From a phage, in the sequence record PZ379075.1: a DNA stretch of 64,000 nt. The stretch is one strand, 5' to 3'. Both the position numbers and the translations under genes were made by a program. The notes below the pieces were generated by a model. It made no database searches, was not told the DNA's origin, and saw nothing but the letters and a program-made list of their open reading frames with translations. Shown here piece by piece: positions 1 through 6,344 of this stretch. How positions within the stretch are numbered: position 1 is the stretch's first letter; each line of letters opens with the position of its first letter.

Positions 1-425
1 TTGAAGAACTGAAAACCTACACTTGGTTGGCTTGGAGAGATAGCCGACGAGAGATGAATAAGTAATATCGTGAAGGATTCTTACGAGAGTCCTTTGAGAT
101 AGGACTTCAGATCTCCTATCAAACTAACATTCATGTAACTAGCCCATAAGGGCGTTACCCTTTAATAACCCAGCCCACTAAGGGGGCGGGAGTTTAGTGC
201 TGGATTAGCATAACGCTTATTCCTACAAAGGCAACCGATTGTTAGGTCTTACATGCAATATTAATTAATAGGATAAGGGAGGATTCGTCCCCTCCCCCTA
301 TTCATAAACTATTAGGAGAGTACATTAGCTGATTAGCTGTGGAAGGTAGGCCGATATCTACAGCGTGGCCCAGAGCTAGTGTACTCCCCAATAACTTTAG
401 GGTAAATGTGGAACAACCTTTTAAT

Positions 426-571
426 TACAGGTATAGCTTATGGGACTCAGTAATGCAGAGTCTACGGTAAAGCAGTCGCCCGTGGTCGAATGACCGTATG
501 CCCATTGGATGCATTCCTTTGGTGATGGCTAGGGAGTCCGAGCGTAGGTTCGAATCCTACACCTGTAACCA
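426..571 (+). ncRNA. tRNA-like element (unusual or intron-containing tRNA, or tRNA 3' fragment)
   Basis: Canonical T-arm gtagg-TTCGAAT-cctac at 544-560, 3' acceptor strand acctgta 561-567, discriminator A plus CCA 568-571. The only perfect 7-nt complement (tacaggt) is at 426-432, giving 146 nt rather than about 76. A gactc/gagtc stem at 444-462 could be an anticodon-like arm. I could not fold a canonical cloverleaf by hand. Confidence 0.3.
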
Positions 572-599
572 AATTGAATAATAGCTAATTGGAGGATGT

Positions 600-911
600 A
601 TGAAAGCACGAAGAACTATATGGACTCCGATGCAGATTGAAAATCTTCGGAGACTAATCAAAGAGTACTCGGTTCAAGAAGTTGCTCAGATTATGAATGT
701 AACGGAGAATGCAGTTAACGCAGCTTGTACTAAATTCGGAATATCAAGAGCTTCAATCCGAGTTAAATGGTCTGAAGAAGAAGACCAGTTCCTTATCCGT
801 AATGCTGGGTTCATGTCTATTCAGAGAATGGCTGACATGCTCGGTAGAAGTTATGCTGCTGTACAGAACAGAGCATGTATGCACCTTAACATTAGCCTCA
901 AACTTAAATAG
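600..911 (+). CDS. putative DNA-binding regulator with two helix-turn-helix-like repeats
   Basis: ORF with GGAGG Shine-Dalgarno 5-9 nt upstream; two similar segments (VQEVAQIMNVTENAVNAACTKFGI and SIQRMADMLGRSYAAVQNRAC) resemble HTH motifs. First gene of the + module. Confidence 0.45.
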   Translation: MKARRTIWTPMQIENLRRLIKEYSVQEVAQIMNVTENAVNAACTKFGISRASIRVKWSEEEDQFLIRNAGFMSIQRMADMLGRSYAAVQNRACMHLNISLKLK

Positions 912-5545: not shown

Positions 5546-6344
5546 GCGCAAATTTCTCATCGGCTCTGACCCTGAAATGTTCGTTCGTACTAGTAATGGT
5601 ATCATCACTTCTGTAGCCGGTTTATTAGGCTGCTCTAAGGACGATAAGATCGCTCTGGCTAAGGATGTTCGTCTCCAAGAGGACAACGTACTGGCTGAGT
5701 TTGATATTGACCCACAGAGCGGTTTTGAAGCGTTTAACGATAACATGCAACGTGGTATTGATCTCACCAATAATGTCCTGAACAAACTGGACATGGAAAC
5801 AGCTCCGGGTGTTAGCTCTCACATCTTCACTGAAGAAGAGATGAAGACCTTTAACGAATCAGCGTTCATCTTCGGGTGCACTCCTGATTTCAACGCCTTC
5901 ACTGGTCAGAAAAACCCATCCCCGACTTCTCAGAATAAGGGACTTCGTACTGCCGGTGGTCACGTACATCTTGGCGTAGTTGGTGCTTTGGATATCACTC
6001 TGCAAACTCAGATGATGCTGGGTGTGTTGTGTGACTACTTCCTGTCTCTCCCAGCAGTAATTATGGACAAAGATACTCGCCGTAAAGAACTCTACGGTAA
6101 AGCATCTGCAATCCGTTATAAAGACTATGGTATTGAATACCGTTCTCTGTCTAACTTCTGGATTAGTGATCGTGAAAACCGTAAGTTTGTTTACGATCAG
6201 GTTGACAAGGTTGTTCAGCAGTGTGATATGTCCACCCTGATGGCATTGCACTCTCGCCTTCCGATTGAGAAGCTTCATGAAATCATTAACGGGAACAACG
6301 TTAAAGAAGCTGACCAGCAGATCAAACTCCTTCAGGTAGCATAA
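5538..6344 (+). CDS. putative amidoligase-like protein, paralog A
   Basis: 268 aa; motif spacing shared with 6968-8071: acidic N-terminal motif (GSDPEMF), GGHVHLG about residue 143, GIEYRSL about residue 190. Family assignment from motifs only. Confidence 0.35.
   Translation: MTKRKFLIGSDPEMFVRTSNGIITSVAGLLGCSKDDKIALAKDVRLQEDNVLAEFDIDPQSGFEAFNDNMQRGIDLTNNVLNKLDMETAPGVSSHIFTEEEMKTFNESAFIFGCTPDFNAFTGQKNPSPTSQNKGLRTAGGHVHLGVVGALDITLQTQMMLGVLCDYFLSLPAVIMDKDTRRKELYGKASAIRYKDYGIEYRSLSNFWISDRENRKFVYDQVDKVVQQCDMSTLMALHSRLPIEKLHEIINGNNVKEADQQIKLLQVA

What the first reader, a model, noticed from the sequence alone, without database searches (positions are those of the whole stretch)
426..571. A 146-nt tRNA-like element next to the early genes, in a genome that also encodes a CCA-adding-type nucleotidyltransferase
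Positions 544-571 form a textbook tRNA 3' end (T-arm with GGTTCGAATCC, 7-nt acceptor strand, discriminator, CCA), and the exact complement of the acceptor strand lies at 426-432, but the two halves are about 70 nt too far apart for a normal tRNA. It could be an intron-containing or otherwise non-canonical tRNA, a tRNA-like regulatory RNA, or a tRNA 3' fragment with a chance 7-mer match (roughly 1 percent expectation). The nucleotidyltransferase gene at 15305-16618 makes a functional tRNA-related RNA more plausible.
Basis: seen in the sequence. Interest (0 to 1): 0.6.

Follow-up and report, generated by a model that had tools for sequence, protein, structure and literature searches.

The report
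Mobile tRNA-like RNA gene in phage
Window 426-571 is a real, unannotated gene for a 146-nt RNA with the top half of a tRNA (acceptor stem, T-arm, CCA) but no anticodon arm, carried as a swappable cassette by two unrelated phage families, much like the still-unexplained 'species I' RNA of phage T4.

Summary
Positions 544-571 are a canonical T-arm, 7-nt acceptor strand, A and CCA, and 426-432 is the exact complement.

It is not chance. The same 146-nt unit (92-100% identical) occurs in 13 phage records and 4 metagenomic or viral contigs. In N4-like Klebsiella phages, a family unrelated to this phiEco32-like Kuravirus, it sits inside a tRNA gene array between tRNA-Tyr and tRNA-Ser with the array's CCA-AAU punctuation.

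Two-sided substitutions keep the acceptor stem (G:C to A:U) and two internal hairpins paired.

It is not a decoding tRNA. ARAGORN (default) and Rfam find none. ARAGORN's intron model (tRNA-Val, 49-nt intron) cuts through a covarying hairpin, has C at position 33, and its 'anticodon' varies among near-identical copies. It is not a tmRNA and not a host tRNA fragment (no match in E. coli, bacterial genomes or plasmids).

The nucleotidyltransferase is a core Kuravirus gene and is not co-distributed with the element.

Best reading: a stable tRNA-mimic RNA excised by tRNA-processing enzymes, analogous but not homologous to T4 rnaC. Its function is unknown; a tRNA-mimic or decoy role is inferred only.

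The parts
426..571 (+). Whole predicted mature RNA, 146 nt ('element A')
   Evidence: Ends are defined by the terminal stem and CCA. They match the limits of cross-family homology, 423-575, and the slot between tRNA-Tyr and tRNA-Ser in HS106, GADU21 and L013. The covariance model scores it at 186.8 bits and finds a single copy in the window.
423..425 (+). AAU leader or spacer, with U at position -1 before the predicted RNase P cut
   Evidence: The same AAU separates the CCA of tRNA-Tyr from the element in HS106. It is part of the ACCAAAU direct repeat that bounds the 149-nt insertion. RNase P cleavage is inferred, not shown.
426..432 (+). 5' strand of the 7-bp acceptor-like stem (UACAGGU)
   Evidence: Exact complement of 561-567. 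Pair 431:562 is G:C in 4 variants and A:U in 3.
434..438 (+). UAGCU, the 5' strand of a proposed D-stem-like long-range helix with 527-531. Hypothetical.
   Evidence: 5 complementary pairs, all invariant, so there is no evidence for or against the helix (helix 2). AUAGCU after the acceptor strand is typical of tRNAs in these arrays.
443..463 (+). Hairpin H1: stem 443-448/458-463, 9-nt loop 449-457 containing an invariant AAUGCA
   Evidence: 445:461 changes from A:U to G:C in FH3 and XT32. 443:463 changes from G.U to A:U in 5 variants. Loop position 450 takes all four bases.
466..481 (+). Invariant 16-nt stretch GGUAAAGCAGUCGCCC, unpaired in my model
   Evidence: Invariant in all 7 variants, while the neighbouring position 465 is C, U or A. 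RNAalifold instead pairs part of it as a weak hairpin. Its role is unknown.
482..497 (+). Hairpin H3: GUGGUC-GAAU-GACCGU, reminiscent of a degenerate T-arm
   Evidence: 483:496 changes from U.G to U:A in HS106. Tetraloop position 488 is G or A.
502..522 (+). Hairpin H4: CCA-UU-GGA-[UGCAU]-UCC-UU-UGG
   Evidence: 509:515 changes from A:U to G:C in XT32. The 5-nt loop UGCAU is invariant and complementary to AUGCA in the H1 loop. A loop-loop kissing interaction is inferred only.
527..531 (+). GGCUA, the 3' strand of the proposed long-range helix. Hypothetical.
   Evidence: See 434-438. The alternative MFE pairing 528-530/541-543 loses a pair in the Klebsiella copies, where A541 becomes U.
532..543 (+). 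12-nt linker GGGAGUCCGAGC before the T-arm, in the position of a variable region
   Evidence: Resembles the AGGGUGUC variable region of the phage tRNA-Pro genes. Position 541 varies between A and U.
544..560 (+). Canonical T-arm GUAGG-UUCGAAU-CCUAC
   Evidence: The only part recognised by the Rfam tRNA model (14.8 bits, local). The stem is invariant. The loop is UUCGAAC in the Klebsiella copies and UCCGAAC in the XT phages.
561..571 (+). 3' acceptor strand ACCUGUA, discriminator A568, encoded CCA 569-571
   Evidence: One metagenomic variant (L044/L046) has UCA instead of CCA.
572..576 (+). AAAUU trailer, the array-type punctuation after CCA
   Evidence: The same CCA-AAAUU follows the tRNAs of the Klebsiella-phage arrays and T4 rnaD. 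It is a likely site of 3' endonucleolytic processing (inferred).

Best explanation
Element A is a self-contained gene for a 146-nt non-coding RNA.

Anatomy:
- It keeps the 'top half' of a tRNA: a 7-bp acceptor stem stacked on a canonical T-arm, discriminator A and an encoded CCA.
- The D and anticodon arms are replaced by about 110 nt that contain at least three hairpins.

How it is made (inferred):
- It is transcribed on the + strand within the early polycistronic transcript. That transcript also carries the phage's tRNA-Arg 1.9 kb upstream.
- It is excised like a tRNA. RNase P cuts after U425. An endonuclease cuts in the AAAUU trailer, and exonucleases trim back to CCA.

What it does (inferred):
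- It cannot decode, because it has no anticodon arm.
- It most likely acts as a stable tRNA mimic. The acceptor/T-arm/CCA module would engage a tRNA-binding factor, and the invariant internal loops and single strand would give specificity. A decoy or inhibitor of a tRNA-directed host activity is the leading guess.

Evolution:
- It is an accessory cassette that moves between phage tRNA arrays by recombination at the shared ACCAAAU junctions.
- It probably descends from an array tRNA.

Shown: the anatomy, the conservation, the covariation, the array context, the cassette gain and loss, and the absence from hosts.
Inferred: transcription, processing, stability and function.
For: Discrete unit shared by unrelated families:
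- Kuravirus and Schitoviridae/Efbeekayvirus share it at about 95% identity, with unrelated flanks.
- In HS106, GADU21 and L013 it occupies a tRNA slot between tRNA-Tyr and tRNA-Ser with 3-6 nt CCA-AAU spacers.

Cassette gain and loss:
- FBKp27 and Tribble lack exactly 149 nt, bounded by a direct ACCAAAU repeat.
- SkaterBoy, 99% identical in the flanks, lacks it.

Structure is maintained:
- 98.8% of cells in 35 pairs across 7 variants are paired.
- 3 pairs show two-sided changes (6:137, 20:36, 84:90), against 0-1 for slid controls. The covariation score is reached by 0 of 500 shuffles.
- Hypervariable columns fall in loops.

Not protein-coding:
- The only internal ORF, 17 codons from 440, takes 4 changes in FH3, all non-synonymous (read).

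Precedent:
- T4 rnaC is 139 nt, has a canonical T-arm and terminal pairing, and lies at the end of the tRNA array.
- It is made from the same roughly 1.75-kb precursor as the tRNAs (PMC2330249).

Same phage:
- ShigP1 has a second unannotated unit of the same design next to its tRNA-Arg.

Likely tRNA ancestry:
- The 3' 28 nt and the pre-T-arm linker resemble the array's tRNA-Ser and tRNA-Pro.
Against: - No expression data: no promoter was mapped and no RNA-seq is available.
- The single-sequence fold is not unusually stable (z = -1.37).
- Diversity is low: 7 variants and an effective sequence number of 0.84. Each covariation may be a single event, and most of the interior is invariant and therefore uninformative.
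- Distribution is sporadic: 13 of about 110 related records, and 2 Efbeekayvirus genomes.
- Some copies look degraded. L044/L046 has UCA instead of CCA and two mismatches in H1. The XT phages have C at T-loop position 55 and an A.G mismatch.
- Variation is not depleted in stems relative to loops.
- Nothing tested here bears directly on the proposed decoy or mimic function. No acceptor-stem identity set of a known aminoacyl-tRNA synthetase is evident (from memory of the published identity rules).
Confidence: 0.7

Rival explanations
1. Functionless passenger. A tRNA-derived pseudogene or selfish cassette spreads between phage tRNA regions by recombination or homing-endonuclease-driven gene conversion. 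It is still processed because it keeps tRNA ends, but it does nothing for the phage.
For: - Patchy presence.
- Degraded variants: UCA for CCA, a T-loop U55C change, H1 mismatches.
- Its divergence within Kuravirus is similar to that of its flanks.
- The FH3/XT32 insert is a mosaic of fragments from other phages' array regions.
- T4 SegB targets the T-arm motif and drives inheritance of tRNA cassettes. A homing endonuclease gene abuts tRNA-Arg in Bas91.
Against: - Three independent compensatory double substitutions keep helices paired.
- Long invariant stretches lie next to hypervariable loop positions.
- Processing signals are intact in 6 of 7 variants.
- The element is retained in two unrelated families.
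Confidence: 0.17
2. Cis-acting processing or stability element. The tRNA-like fold serves mainly as an RNase P/RNase E punctuation mark that defines the 5' end of the mRNA for the downstream HTH regulator gene (window 600-911).
For: The element ends 28 nt before the start codon of that gene and lies in a long structured leader.
Against: - In the Klebsiella phages the same unit lies between two tRNAs, with no adjacent ORF.
- Most Kuraviruses express the same gene without it.
- About 110 nt of conserved interior would be unnecessary for punctuation.
Confidence: 0.07
3. An intron-containing tRNA (ARAGORN: tRNA-Val UAC with a 49-nt intron) or another decoding tRNA with insertions, such as a Cys-GCA-like arm at 502-522.
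For: ARAGORN -i as tRNA-Val(tac) with an intron. Hairpin H4 displays U-GCA.
Against: - ARAGORN in default mode finds nothing, and the Rfam tRNA model matches only the T-arm at 14.8 bits against a gathering score of 29.
- ARAGORN moved through Cys, Thr and Val models for the same span.
- The Val model has a 2-pair D stem and C at position 33, and its anticodon third base varies C/U/A. It also breaks the covarying hairpin H1 and puts the covarying H4 pair inside the 'intron'.
- H4 has a 5-nt loop closed by a covarying pair, not a 7-nt anticodon loop.
- Bacteria have no known splicing route for such an intron (established knowledge).
Confidence: 0.03
4. A miniature or degenerate tmRNA-like RNA acting in ribosome rescue.
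For: - The topology (acceptor stem, a long-range helix enclosing a large insert, T-arm) resembles the tRNA-like domain of tmRNA.
- Related N4-like Klebsiella phages carry a tmRNA-type tag ORF, ANDDVVLMAA*, beside their tRNA arrays.
Against: - No tmRNA call in the window by ARAGORN even at -ps80, and no Rfam tmRNA hit at E up to 10.
- There is no G3:U70; position 3:70 is C:G.
- There is no conserved tag frame. The 'tag' ARAGORN forces onto the element differs between FH3 and XT32.
Confidence: 0.02
5. A host tRNA 3' fragment (attP-like remnant) plus a chance upstream 7-mer.
For: A single-sequence chance of about 1% cannot be dismissed from the window alone.
Against: - No match in 5,426 E. coli genomes at E up to 10.
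- No true match in representative bacterial genomes or in plasmids.
- The acceptor pair covaries.
- The full 146 nt is conserved across phage families.
Confidence: 0.01

Closest known systems
Phage T4 species I RNA (rnaC), with its neighbour species II RNA (rnaD)
   Same: - A phage-encoded stable RNA of about 140 nt with a canonical T-arm (CCGGG-UUCGAAU-CCCGG) and paired 5'/3' ends.
- About 100 nt of non-tRNA structure in between.
- Sits in or at the end of a tRNA gene array and is made from the same precursor as the tRNAs.
- Presence varies among related phages, and the function is unknown.
   Different: - No detectable sequence or covariance-model homology: 10.7 bits, no better than ordinary tRNAs.
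- As annotated, T4 rnaC has an imperfect terminal stem (two U.U) and no encoded CCA. Element A has a perfect 7-bp stem and an encoded ACCA.
- In the Kuravirus, element A lies outside an array, in the leader of a regulator gene.
Canonical phage tRNAs of the same arrays (class II tRNA-Ser UGA, tRNA-Pro UGG)
   Same: - Acceptor stem, T-arm, discriminator, encoded CCA and CCA-AAU punctuation.
- The 3' 28 nt are about 80% identical to tRNA-Ser.
- The AUAGCU 5' motif and the AGGGnGUC linker resemble tRNA-Pro.
   Different: - No D arm and no anticodon arm; 146 nt rather than 75-90 nt.
- Fails ARAGORN in default mode and the Rfam tRNA model.
tRNA-like domain of tmRNA
   Same: The acceptor stem and T-arm are retained, with a large insert in place of the anticodon arm. 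The RNA is processed and CCA-ended like a tRNA.
   Different: No G3:U70, no tag ORF, no pseudoknot series, and less than half the size. No tmRNA hit from Rfam or ARAGORN.
Intron-containing tRNAs (bacterial group I introns in the anticodon loop; archaeal bulge-helix-bulge introns)
   Same: The tRNA ends are too far apart, and ARAGORN -i produces a call.
   Different: - The insert is too short for a group I intron.
- The host has no splicing endonuclease (established knowledge).
- The 'exons' do not form a credible cloverleaf, and covariation contradicts the model.
Bacterial Y-RNA-like YrlA (a tRNA-mimicking module bound by Rsr/Ro)
   Same: A non-coding RNA that contains a tRNA-like module.
   Different: In YrlA the tRNA-like part is internal and the ends form the Ro-binding stem. 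Here the ends form the acceptor stem. There is no YrlA hit on the element. E. coli has no Rsr (from memory).

Membership tests
tRNA (Rfam RF00005) | Full cloverleaf scoring at or above the gathering threshold of 29 bits | tested here: not met
   There is only a local T-arm match at 540-560, 14.8 bits, E = 3. The gathering scan found nothing. ARAGORN in default mode found 0 genes.
tRNA (Rfam RF00005) | 7-bp acceptor stem, T-arm with UUCRANY loop, discriminator and CCA | tested here: met
   Acceptor pair 6:67 covaries.
tRNA (Rfam RF00005) | D arm and a 5-bp anticodon stem with a 7-nt loop, U33 and a fixed anticodon | tested here: not met
   No such arms can be drawn. The best forced model has a 2-pair D stem, C33, and an anticodon third base that varies C/U/A.
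Intron-containing tRNA | Removing one insert leaves a canonical tRNA that is consistent with covariation | tested here: not met
   ARAGORN's 97-nt 'exon' product is still non-canonical. Two of the three covarying pairs lie in its loop or intron.
Intron-containing tRNA | A splicing mechanism: a group I core, or a bulge-helix-bulge motif plus an endonuclease | not testable with these tools
   49-70 nt is far below group I intron size, and no Rfam intron hit was found. The absence of a bacterial splicing endonuclease rests on established knowledge.
tmRNA | Tag reading frame with a resume codon, G3:U70 and pseudoknots | tested here: not met
   No ARAGORN tmRNA call for the window down to -ps80. 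No Rfam tmRNA hit at E up to 10. Position 3:70 is C:G. The forced 'tag' is not conserved.
T4 species I RNA (rnaC) family | Sequence or profile homology to rnaC | tested here: not met
   The covariance model of the element scores rnaC at 10.7 bits, E about 0.04-0.1, below ordinary tRNAs. No BLAST relation was found.
T4 species I RNA (rnaC) family | Architecture: about 140 nt, terminal stem plus canonical T-arm, non-tRNA interior | tested here: met
   Searches compared.
T4 species I RNA (rnaC) family | Encoded within a phage tRNA gene array and co-transcribed with the tRNAs | tested here: inconclusive
   Met for position in HS106, GADU21 and L013. In this window the element stands alone, 1.9 kb downstream of tRNA-Arg on the same strand. 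Co-transcription was not tested.
T4 species I RNA (rnaC) family | Accumulates as a stable processed RNA in infected cells | not testable with these tools
   Needs a northern blot or small-RNA-seq.
Host-derived tRNA fragment / attP core | Identity to a host tRNA gene 3' end | tested here: not met
   No match in E. coli genomes at E up to 10. No true match in genome contigs or in plasmids.
Y-RNA-like (YrlA) | Rfam RF02553 match, with a Ro-binding terminal stem and an internal tRNA-like module | tested here: not met
   No hit on 300-700 at E up to 10. The topology is the reverse of YrlA.

The most novel reading that the evidence does not exclude
Element A is one visible member of a largely unannotated repertoire of mobile tRNA-mimic RNA cassettes in phage tRNA regions.

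Other members seen here:
- Unit B, next to the Kuravirus tRNA-Arg.
- Units of 113-116 nt in Efbeekay- and Kaypoctavirus arrays.
- A 66-nt mini tRNA-like gene in N4-like phages.
- A tmRNA-like gene with the tag ANDDVVLMAA.

On this reading, phages exchange these cassettes at conserved CCA-AAU junctions. They use them as decoys or inhibitors of tRNA-directed host immunity (anticodon nucleases, acceptor-end modifying toxins) or of tRNA-processing enzymes. That would finally give a function to the 50-year-old T4 species I/II class of RNAs.
Probability: 0.2. Interest if true: 0.75.

Novelty: new variant of a known kind. Interest (0 to 1): 0.5.

Why it matters
- Phage tRNA genes are now understood partly as counter-measures to tRNA-cleaving defences (for example PMC10264068, PMC11555353 and PMC12445682, listed). 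The non-decoding tRNA-like RNAs that travel with them, known from T4 since the 1970s, have never been assigned a function and are invisible to annotation pipelines.
- This element is missed by ARAGORN in default mode and by Rfam, and none of the 13 GenBank records annotates it as an RNA gene.
- It supplies a second, independent family of that kind, with structural covariation and clear horizontal transfer between unrelated phage families.
- Near-isogenic natural pairs exist with and without it. ShigP1 has it. SkaterBoy_Bas90 and DE5 lack it and are 99% identical to ShigP1 in the flanks. That makes the long-open question of what such RNAs do directly testable.
- Practically, it shows that tRNA-array 'spacers' of 70-170 nt should be screened for RNA genes.

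Tried and rejected
- Standard detectors. ARAGORN in default mode and the Rfam gathering and permissive scans found no tRNA, tmRNA or other family.
- ARAGORN with introns gave a tRNA-Val call. I rejected it on covariation and anticodon variability.
- ARAGORN tmRNA mode at relaxed thresholds gave only noise for this element.
- Search for distant homologs:
  - Four IMG/VR pattern scans found only L013 plus chance hits in coding regions.
  - One metagenome scan found 3 Kuravirus contigs.
  - Two genome scans found none, plus one chance 19-mer.
  - Permissive BLAST of the interior alone added nothing.
  - The covariance model hits only ordinary tRNAs through their acceptor stem and T-arm.
- An apparent diverged copy in K60PH164C1 turned out to be an ordinary tRNA-Pro.
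- Antisense-target idea. The longest complementarity to + strand transcripts in the window is 11 nt, which is chance level.
- Internal 17-codon ORF. All differences between variants are non-synonymous, so it is not coding.
- Alternative long-range pairing 443-448/534-539. Covariation favours the local hairpin H1 instead.
- The MFE hairpin 528-530/541-543 loses a pair in the Klebsiella copies.
- Link to the nucleotidyltransferase. Rejected on distribution. Its 'CCA-adding' label rests on a sub-threshold Pfam hit and on other authors' annotation.
- Promoter scan. No sigma-70-like site on the + strand upstream of the element.
- Literature searches found no description of this element.
Full report
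**1. What is in the sequence**

Window 544-571 reads GTAGG-TTCGAAT-CCTAC / ACCTGTA / A / CCA. That is a canonical T-arm, a 7-nt 3' acceptor strand, a discriminator and CCA. Positions 426-432 read TACAGGT, the exact complement of the acceptor strand, which gives a 146-nt unit.

It is the only tRNA-type 3' end in the 64 kb and the only match to a covariance model of the element.

**2. Standard tools do not see it**

- ARAGORN in default mode finds no tRNA or tmRNA in the window.
- Rfam at gathering thresholds finds nothing.
- A permissive Rfam scan of 300-700 recognises only the T-arm as a local tRNA match (14.8 bits against a gathering score of 29).
- The single-sequence fold closes the terminal stem but is not unusually stable (z = -1.37).

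**3. Genome and distribution**

- The window is a phiEco32-like podovirus (Gordonclarkvirinae, Kuravirus), 100% identical to Shigella phage ShigP1.
- About 110 related records match the first 3 kb of the window, but only 13 records carry the element: 11 Escherichia or Shigella phages with this Kuravirus context, and 2 Klebsiella phages.
- None of those records annotates it as an RNA. GADU21 places a hypothetical CDS on the opposite strand over it.
- SkaterBoy_Bas90 and DE5 are 99% identical in the flanks but lack about 392-574.
- IMG/VR adds one copy, L013. Metagenomes add three Kuravirus contigs.
- There is no copy in 5,426 E. coli genomes, in representative bacterial genomes (the single 19-mer hit is a chance match in a coding region) or in plasmids.
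- It is therefore phage-borne and not a host tRNA fragment.

**4. The decisive context**

The two Klebsiella phages, HS106 and GADU21, are Schitoviridae/Efbeekayvirus (N4-like) and unrelated to Kuravirus. They share only window 423-575 with it, at about 95% identity.

There the element lies inside a tRNA gene array, in this order: tRNA-Tyr ...CCA, AAU, element, CCA, AAUUUA, tRNA-Ser. L013 has the same arrangement.

FBKp27 and Tribble_ER49 have tRNA-Tyr followed directly by tRNA-Ser. The difference is a 149-nt insertion bounded by a direct repeat of the array's own ACCAAAU punctuation.

So the element behaves exactly like one more tRNA cassette. Its predicted RNA ends coincide with the limits of homology and with the slot in the array.

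**5. Structure**

Seven distinct variants, 92-100% identical, were aligned without gaps (alignment A4).

I scored a model with these helices:
- the acceptor stem, 1-7/136-142 (element numbering = window minus 425);
- H1, 18-23/33-38;
- H3, 57-62/67-72;
- H4, 77-79/95-97 plus 82-84/90-92;
- the T-arm, 119-123/131-135;
- a hypothetical long-range helix, 9-13/102-106.

Results:
- 98.8% of cells are paired.
- Three pairs change on both sides. 6:137 goes from G:C to A:U in the three Klebsiella-type copies. 20:36 goes from A:U to G:C in FH3 and XT32. 84:90 goes from A:U to G:C in XT32.
- Two more pairs change from wobble to Watson-Crick: 18:38 and 58:71.
- Slid controls give 0-1 two-sided pairs, and 0 of 500 shuffles reach the observed covariation score.
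- Hypervariable columns sit in predicted unpaired positions. Column 25 takes all four bases and column 40 takes three.
- RNAalifold independently recovers the acceptor stem, H1, H4 and the T-arm.

Caveats:
- Diversity is low (effective sequence number 0.84), and each covariation may be a single event.
- The long-range helix and much of the interior are invariant and so untested.
- Stems are not poorer in substitutions than loops.

The two hairpin loops carry invariant, mutually complementary pentamers: AUGCA in H1 and UGCAU in H4. That suggests a loop-loop kiss, but it is inference only.

**6. Not an intron-containing tRNA**

With introns allowed, ARAGORN as tRNA-Val(UAC) with a 49-nt intron. 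I reject this model for these reasons:
- The verbose log shows it moving through Cys, Thr and Val models for the same span.
- The final model has two standard pairs in its D stem and C at position 33.
- Its 'anticodon' third base is column 40, which is C, U or A among near-identical copies.
- It accounts for one covarying pair, the acceptor pair. The other two lie in its D/anticodon 'loop' and in its 'intron'.
- H4 displays U-GCA, but in a 5-nt loop closed by a covarying pair.
- A 49-70-nt insert is far too small for a group I intron, and bacteria lack a tRNA splicing endonuclease (established knowledge).

**7. Not a tmRNA**

- There is no ARAGORN tmRNA call for the window even at -ps80 and no Rfam tmRNA hit.
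- Position 3:70 is C:G.
- There is no conserved tag. The one ARAGORN forces onto the element at low threshold differs between FH3 and XT32.
- The only internal ORF, 17 codons from 440, takes four changes in FH3, all non-synonymous.

**8. Relationship to known RNAs**

- The covariance model R1 hits ordinary tRNAs only through the acceptor stem and T-arm. The best is the arrays' class II tRNA-Ser at about 25 bits, with the interior deleted.
- The element's 3' 28 nt and its pre-T-arm linker resemble the arrays' tRNA-Ser and tRNA-Pro. Descent from an array tRNA is therefore plausible.
- T4 species I RNA (rnaC) is the closest known design. It is 139 nt, has a canonical T-arm and paired ends, and lies last in the T4 tRNA array.
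- rnaC is made from the same roughly 1.75-kb precursor as the eight tRNAs, and its presence varies among T-even phages (PMC2330249).
- There is no detectable homology between the two: rnaC scores 10.7 bits against R1.

Element A works like an rnaC-type RNA in anatomy and context, but it is not a member of that family.

**9. The nucleotidyltransferase**

- The ORF at 15305-16618 matches the Pfam PolyA_pol head domain below threshold (18.8 bits against 23).
- It has no NCBIfam hit and no informative PDB relative.
- It belongs to a PHROG named only 'nucleotidyltransferase'.
- The SU10 paper labels its homolog a class II CCA-adding-enzyme domain (PMC4281155).
- It is present in 98 records, including phages without the element (SkaterBoy, phiEco32), and in no Klebsiella phage.

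It therefore says nothing specific about the element.

**10. Most likely mechanism**

Shown:
- A discrete, structured, non-coding, tRNA-ended unit.
- Inherited as a cassette and exchanged between unrelated phages at ACCAAAU junctions.

Inferred:
- It is transcribed on the + strand with the early genes. The phage's tRNA-Arg lies 1.9 kb upstream on the same strand.
- RNase P cuts after U425, and 3' processing occurs in the AAAUU trailer back to the encoded CCA.
- The product is a stable 146-nt RNA whose acceptor/T-arm minihelix with CCA is what tRNA-binding proteins see.
- Because it cannot decode, I think it most likely acts as a tRNA mimic that engages a tRNA-directed factor. A host defence nuclease or toxin is an attractive candidate, given current views of phage tRNAs.

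Nothing here tests that function.

The main rival is a functionless hitch-hiking cassette. It is supported by the patchy distribution and by degraded variants: UCA for CCA plus H1 mismatches in L044/L046, and C at T-loop position 55 in the XT phages. It is opposed by the compensatory changes.

**11. Wider pattern, seen in passing**

- The same phage has a second unannotated tRNA-like unit of about 116 nt directly after tRNA-Arg, just outside the window. It is nearly invariant across three genera while its flanks diverge, and it is present in 30 records with a distribution independent of element A.
- The extra roughly 105-130 nt upstream of the element in FH3 and XT32 is a mosaic of modules found unannotated in N4-like and jumbo phages.
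- The long hairpin at window 313-391 has a homolog with compensatory changes in Klebsiella phage JZBo1.
- Kaypoctaviruses carry a tmRNA-type tag ORF, ANDDVVLMAA*, beside their arrays.

Phage tRNA regions evidently hold several families of overlooked structured RNAs.

**12. Verdict**

- Observation: confirmed.
- Interpretation: partly supported. It is a tRNA-like RNA. It is not an intron-containing tRNA, not chance and not host-derived, and the nucleotidyltransferase link is unsupported.
- Novelty: a new variant of a known kind, the phage tRNA-array stable RNAs typified by T4 species I.
- Interest is moderate. The design has precedent, but the family is new, mobile across phage families, missed by annotation, and comes with natural with/without phage pairs that make its function testable.

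Noticed in passing
L001:161-276 (ShigP1 PQ818763, just upstream of the window start, + strand of the locus): 'Unit B', a second unannotated tRNA-like RNA gene of about 116 nt directly after tRNA-Arg(UCU). Layout: (A)GGGCUAG..., then T-arm UCUGG-UUCGAUU-CCAGA, then UAGUCC-A-CCA-AAU. It occurs in 30 records at 95-100% identity. It is nearly invariant across Kuravirus, Suseptimavirus and Nieuwekanaalvirus while both flanks diverge. Its distribution is independent of element A.
   Followed up: partly
window 313-391 (+): A hairpin of about 79 nt, GGAGAGUACAUUAGCUGAUUAGCUGUGGAAGGUAGGCCGAUAUCUACAGCGUGGCCCAGAGCUAGUGUACUCCCC, lies in a highly conserved 330-nt non-coding leader (fold z = -3.4 for 60-425). 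It has a homolog in N4-like Klebsiella phage JZBo1 (L052, about 1551-1625) with compensatory changes GUACA/UGUAC to GUGCA/UGCAC. No Rfam match.
   Followed up: partly
L052:1497-1884, tag at about 1682-1714; also L051 and L053 (Klebsiella Kaypoctavirus phages JZBo1, K60PH164C1, VLCpiP4a): A tmRNA-type tag reading frame, GCAAACGAUGAUGUUGUUCUGAUGGCUGCUUAA = ANDDVVLMAA*, lies next to the tRNA array. ARAGORN -ps90 calls a permuted tmRNA. Rfam tmRNA_permuted scores 33 bits, below its gathering score of 47 (E = 4e-4). It is not annotated in the records.
   Followed up: partly
L004:728-869 (FH3), L005 (XT32); remnant at window 392-422: FH3 and XT32 carry extra sequence upstream of element A that is a mosaic.
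- The 3' 65 nt (...CAGAUGGAGCCAGGUGGAAUCCCUGGCAAUUAAU) is 92-98% identical to unannotated sequence in more than 100 N4-like phages. In Jura it directly precedes a 66-nt 'tRNA-Undet'.
- A 5' piece of about 54 nt is about 82% identical to sequence in jumbo phages of about 350 kb.
The window keeps only the first roughly 30 nt.
   Followed up: partly
L013:1176-1290 (minus strand); L047:587-707: A unit of about 113 nt between tRNA-Asp and tRNA-Pro has a 7-bp terminal stem GAAGAGU/ACUCUUC, then A and CCA, but no canonical T-arm. It recalls T4 rnaD, which also ends ...CACCA-AAUU.
   Followed up: no
L052:1957-2072: A 116-nt long tRNA-like unit reads GGCAAGC...GUAGG-UUCAAUU-CCUAC-CCUUGCC-A-CCU and has a second, internal T-arm (GUGG-UUCGAUU-CCAC). 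Element A also has an internal T-arm-like hairpin at 482-497. Covariance-model score 17 bits.
   Followed up: no
L002:2266-2331 (HS106): A 66-nt spacer between tRNA-Asn and tRNA-Pro contains a T-arm-like GUUGG-UUCGAUU-CCAAC, where related phages have tRNA-Asp. There is a weak Rfam YrlA hit (23 bits against a gathering score of 69).
   Followed up: no
L058:1-74 (LorandFenyves_Bas91): A gene annotated as a homing endonuclease abuts and overlaps the tRNA-Arg of this Kuravirus relative, echoing T4 segB inside its tRNA cluster. It is a possible driver of cassette mobility.
   Followed up: no
window 6091-6104 and 461-474 (+): A 14-nt same-sense identity, TCTACGGTAAAGCA, links the element's interior and a site 5.6 kb downstream. 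About 0.03-0.06 such matches are expected by chance. It is not complementary to + strand transcripts.
   Followed up: no
window 15305-16618 (+): The 'CCA-adding-type' nucleotidyltransferase is only a sub-threshold PolyA_pol head-domain match. Its C-terminal roughly 280 aa have no family assignment. It is a core Kuravirus gene of untested activity.
   Followed up: partly
window 600-911 (+): The gene just downstream of the element is annotated variously as 'D5-like transcriptional regulator' or 'endonuclease'. It is a 103-aa protein with sigma-70 region-4-type HTH matches and is present whether or not the element is there.
   Followed up: no
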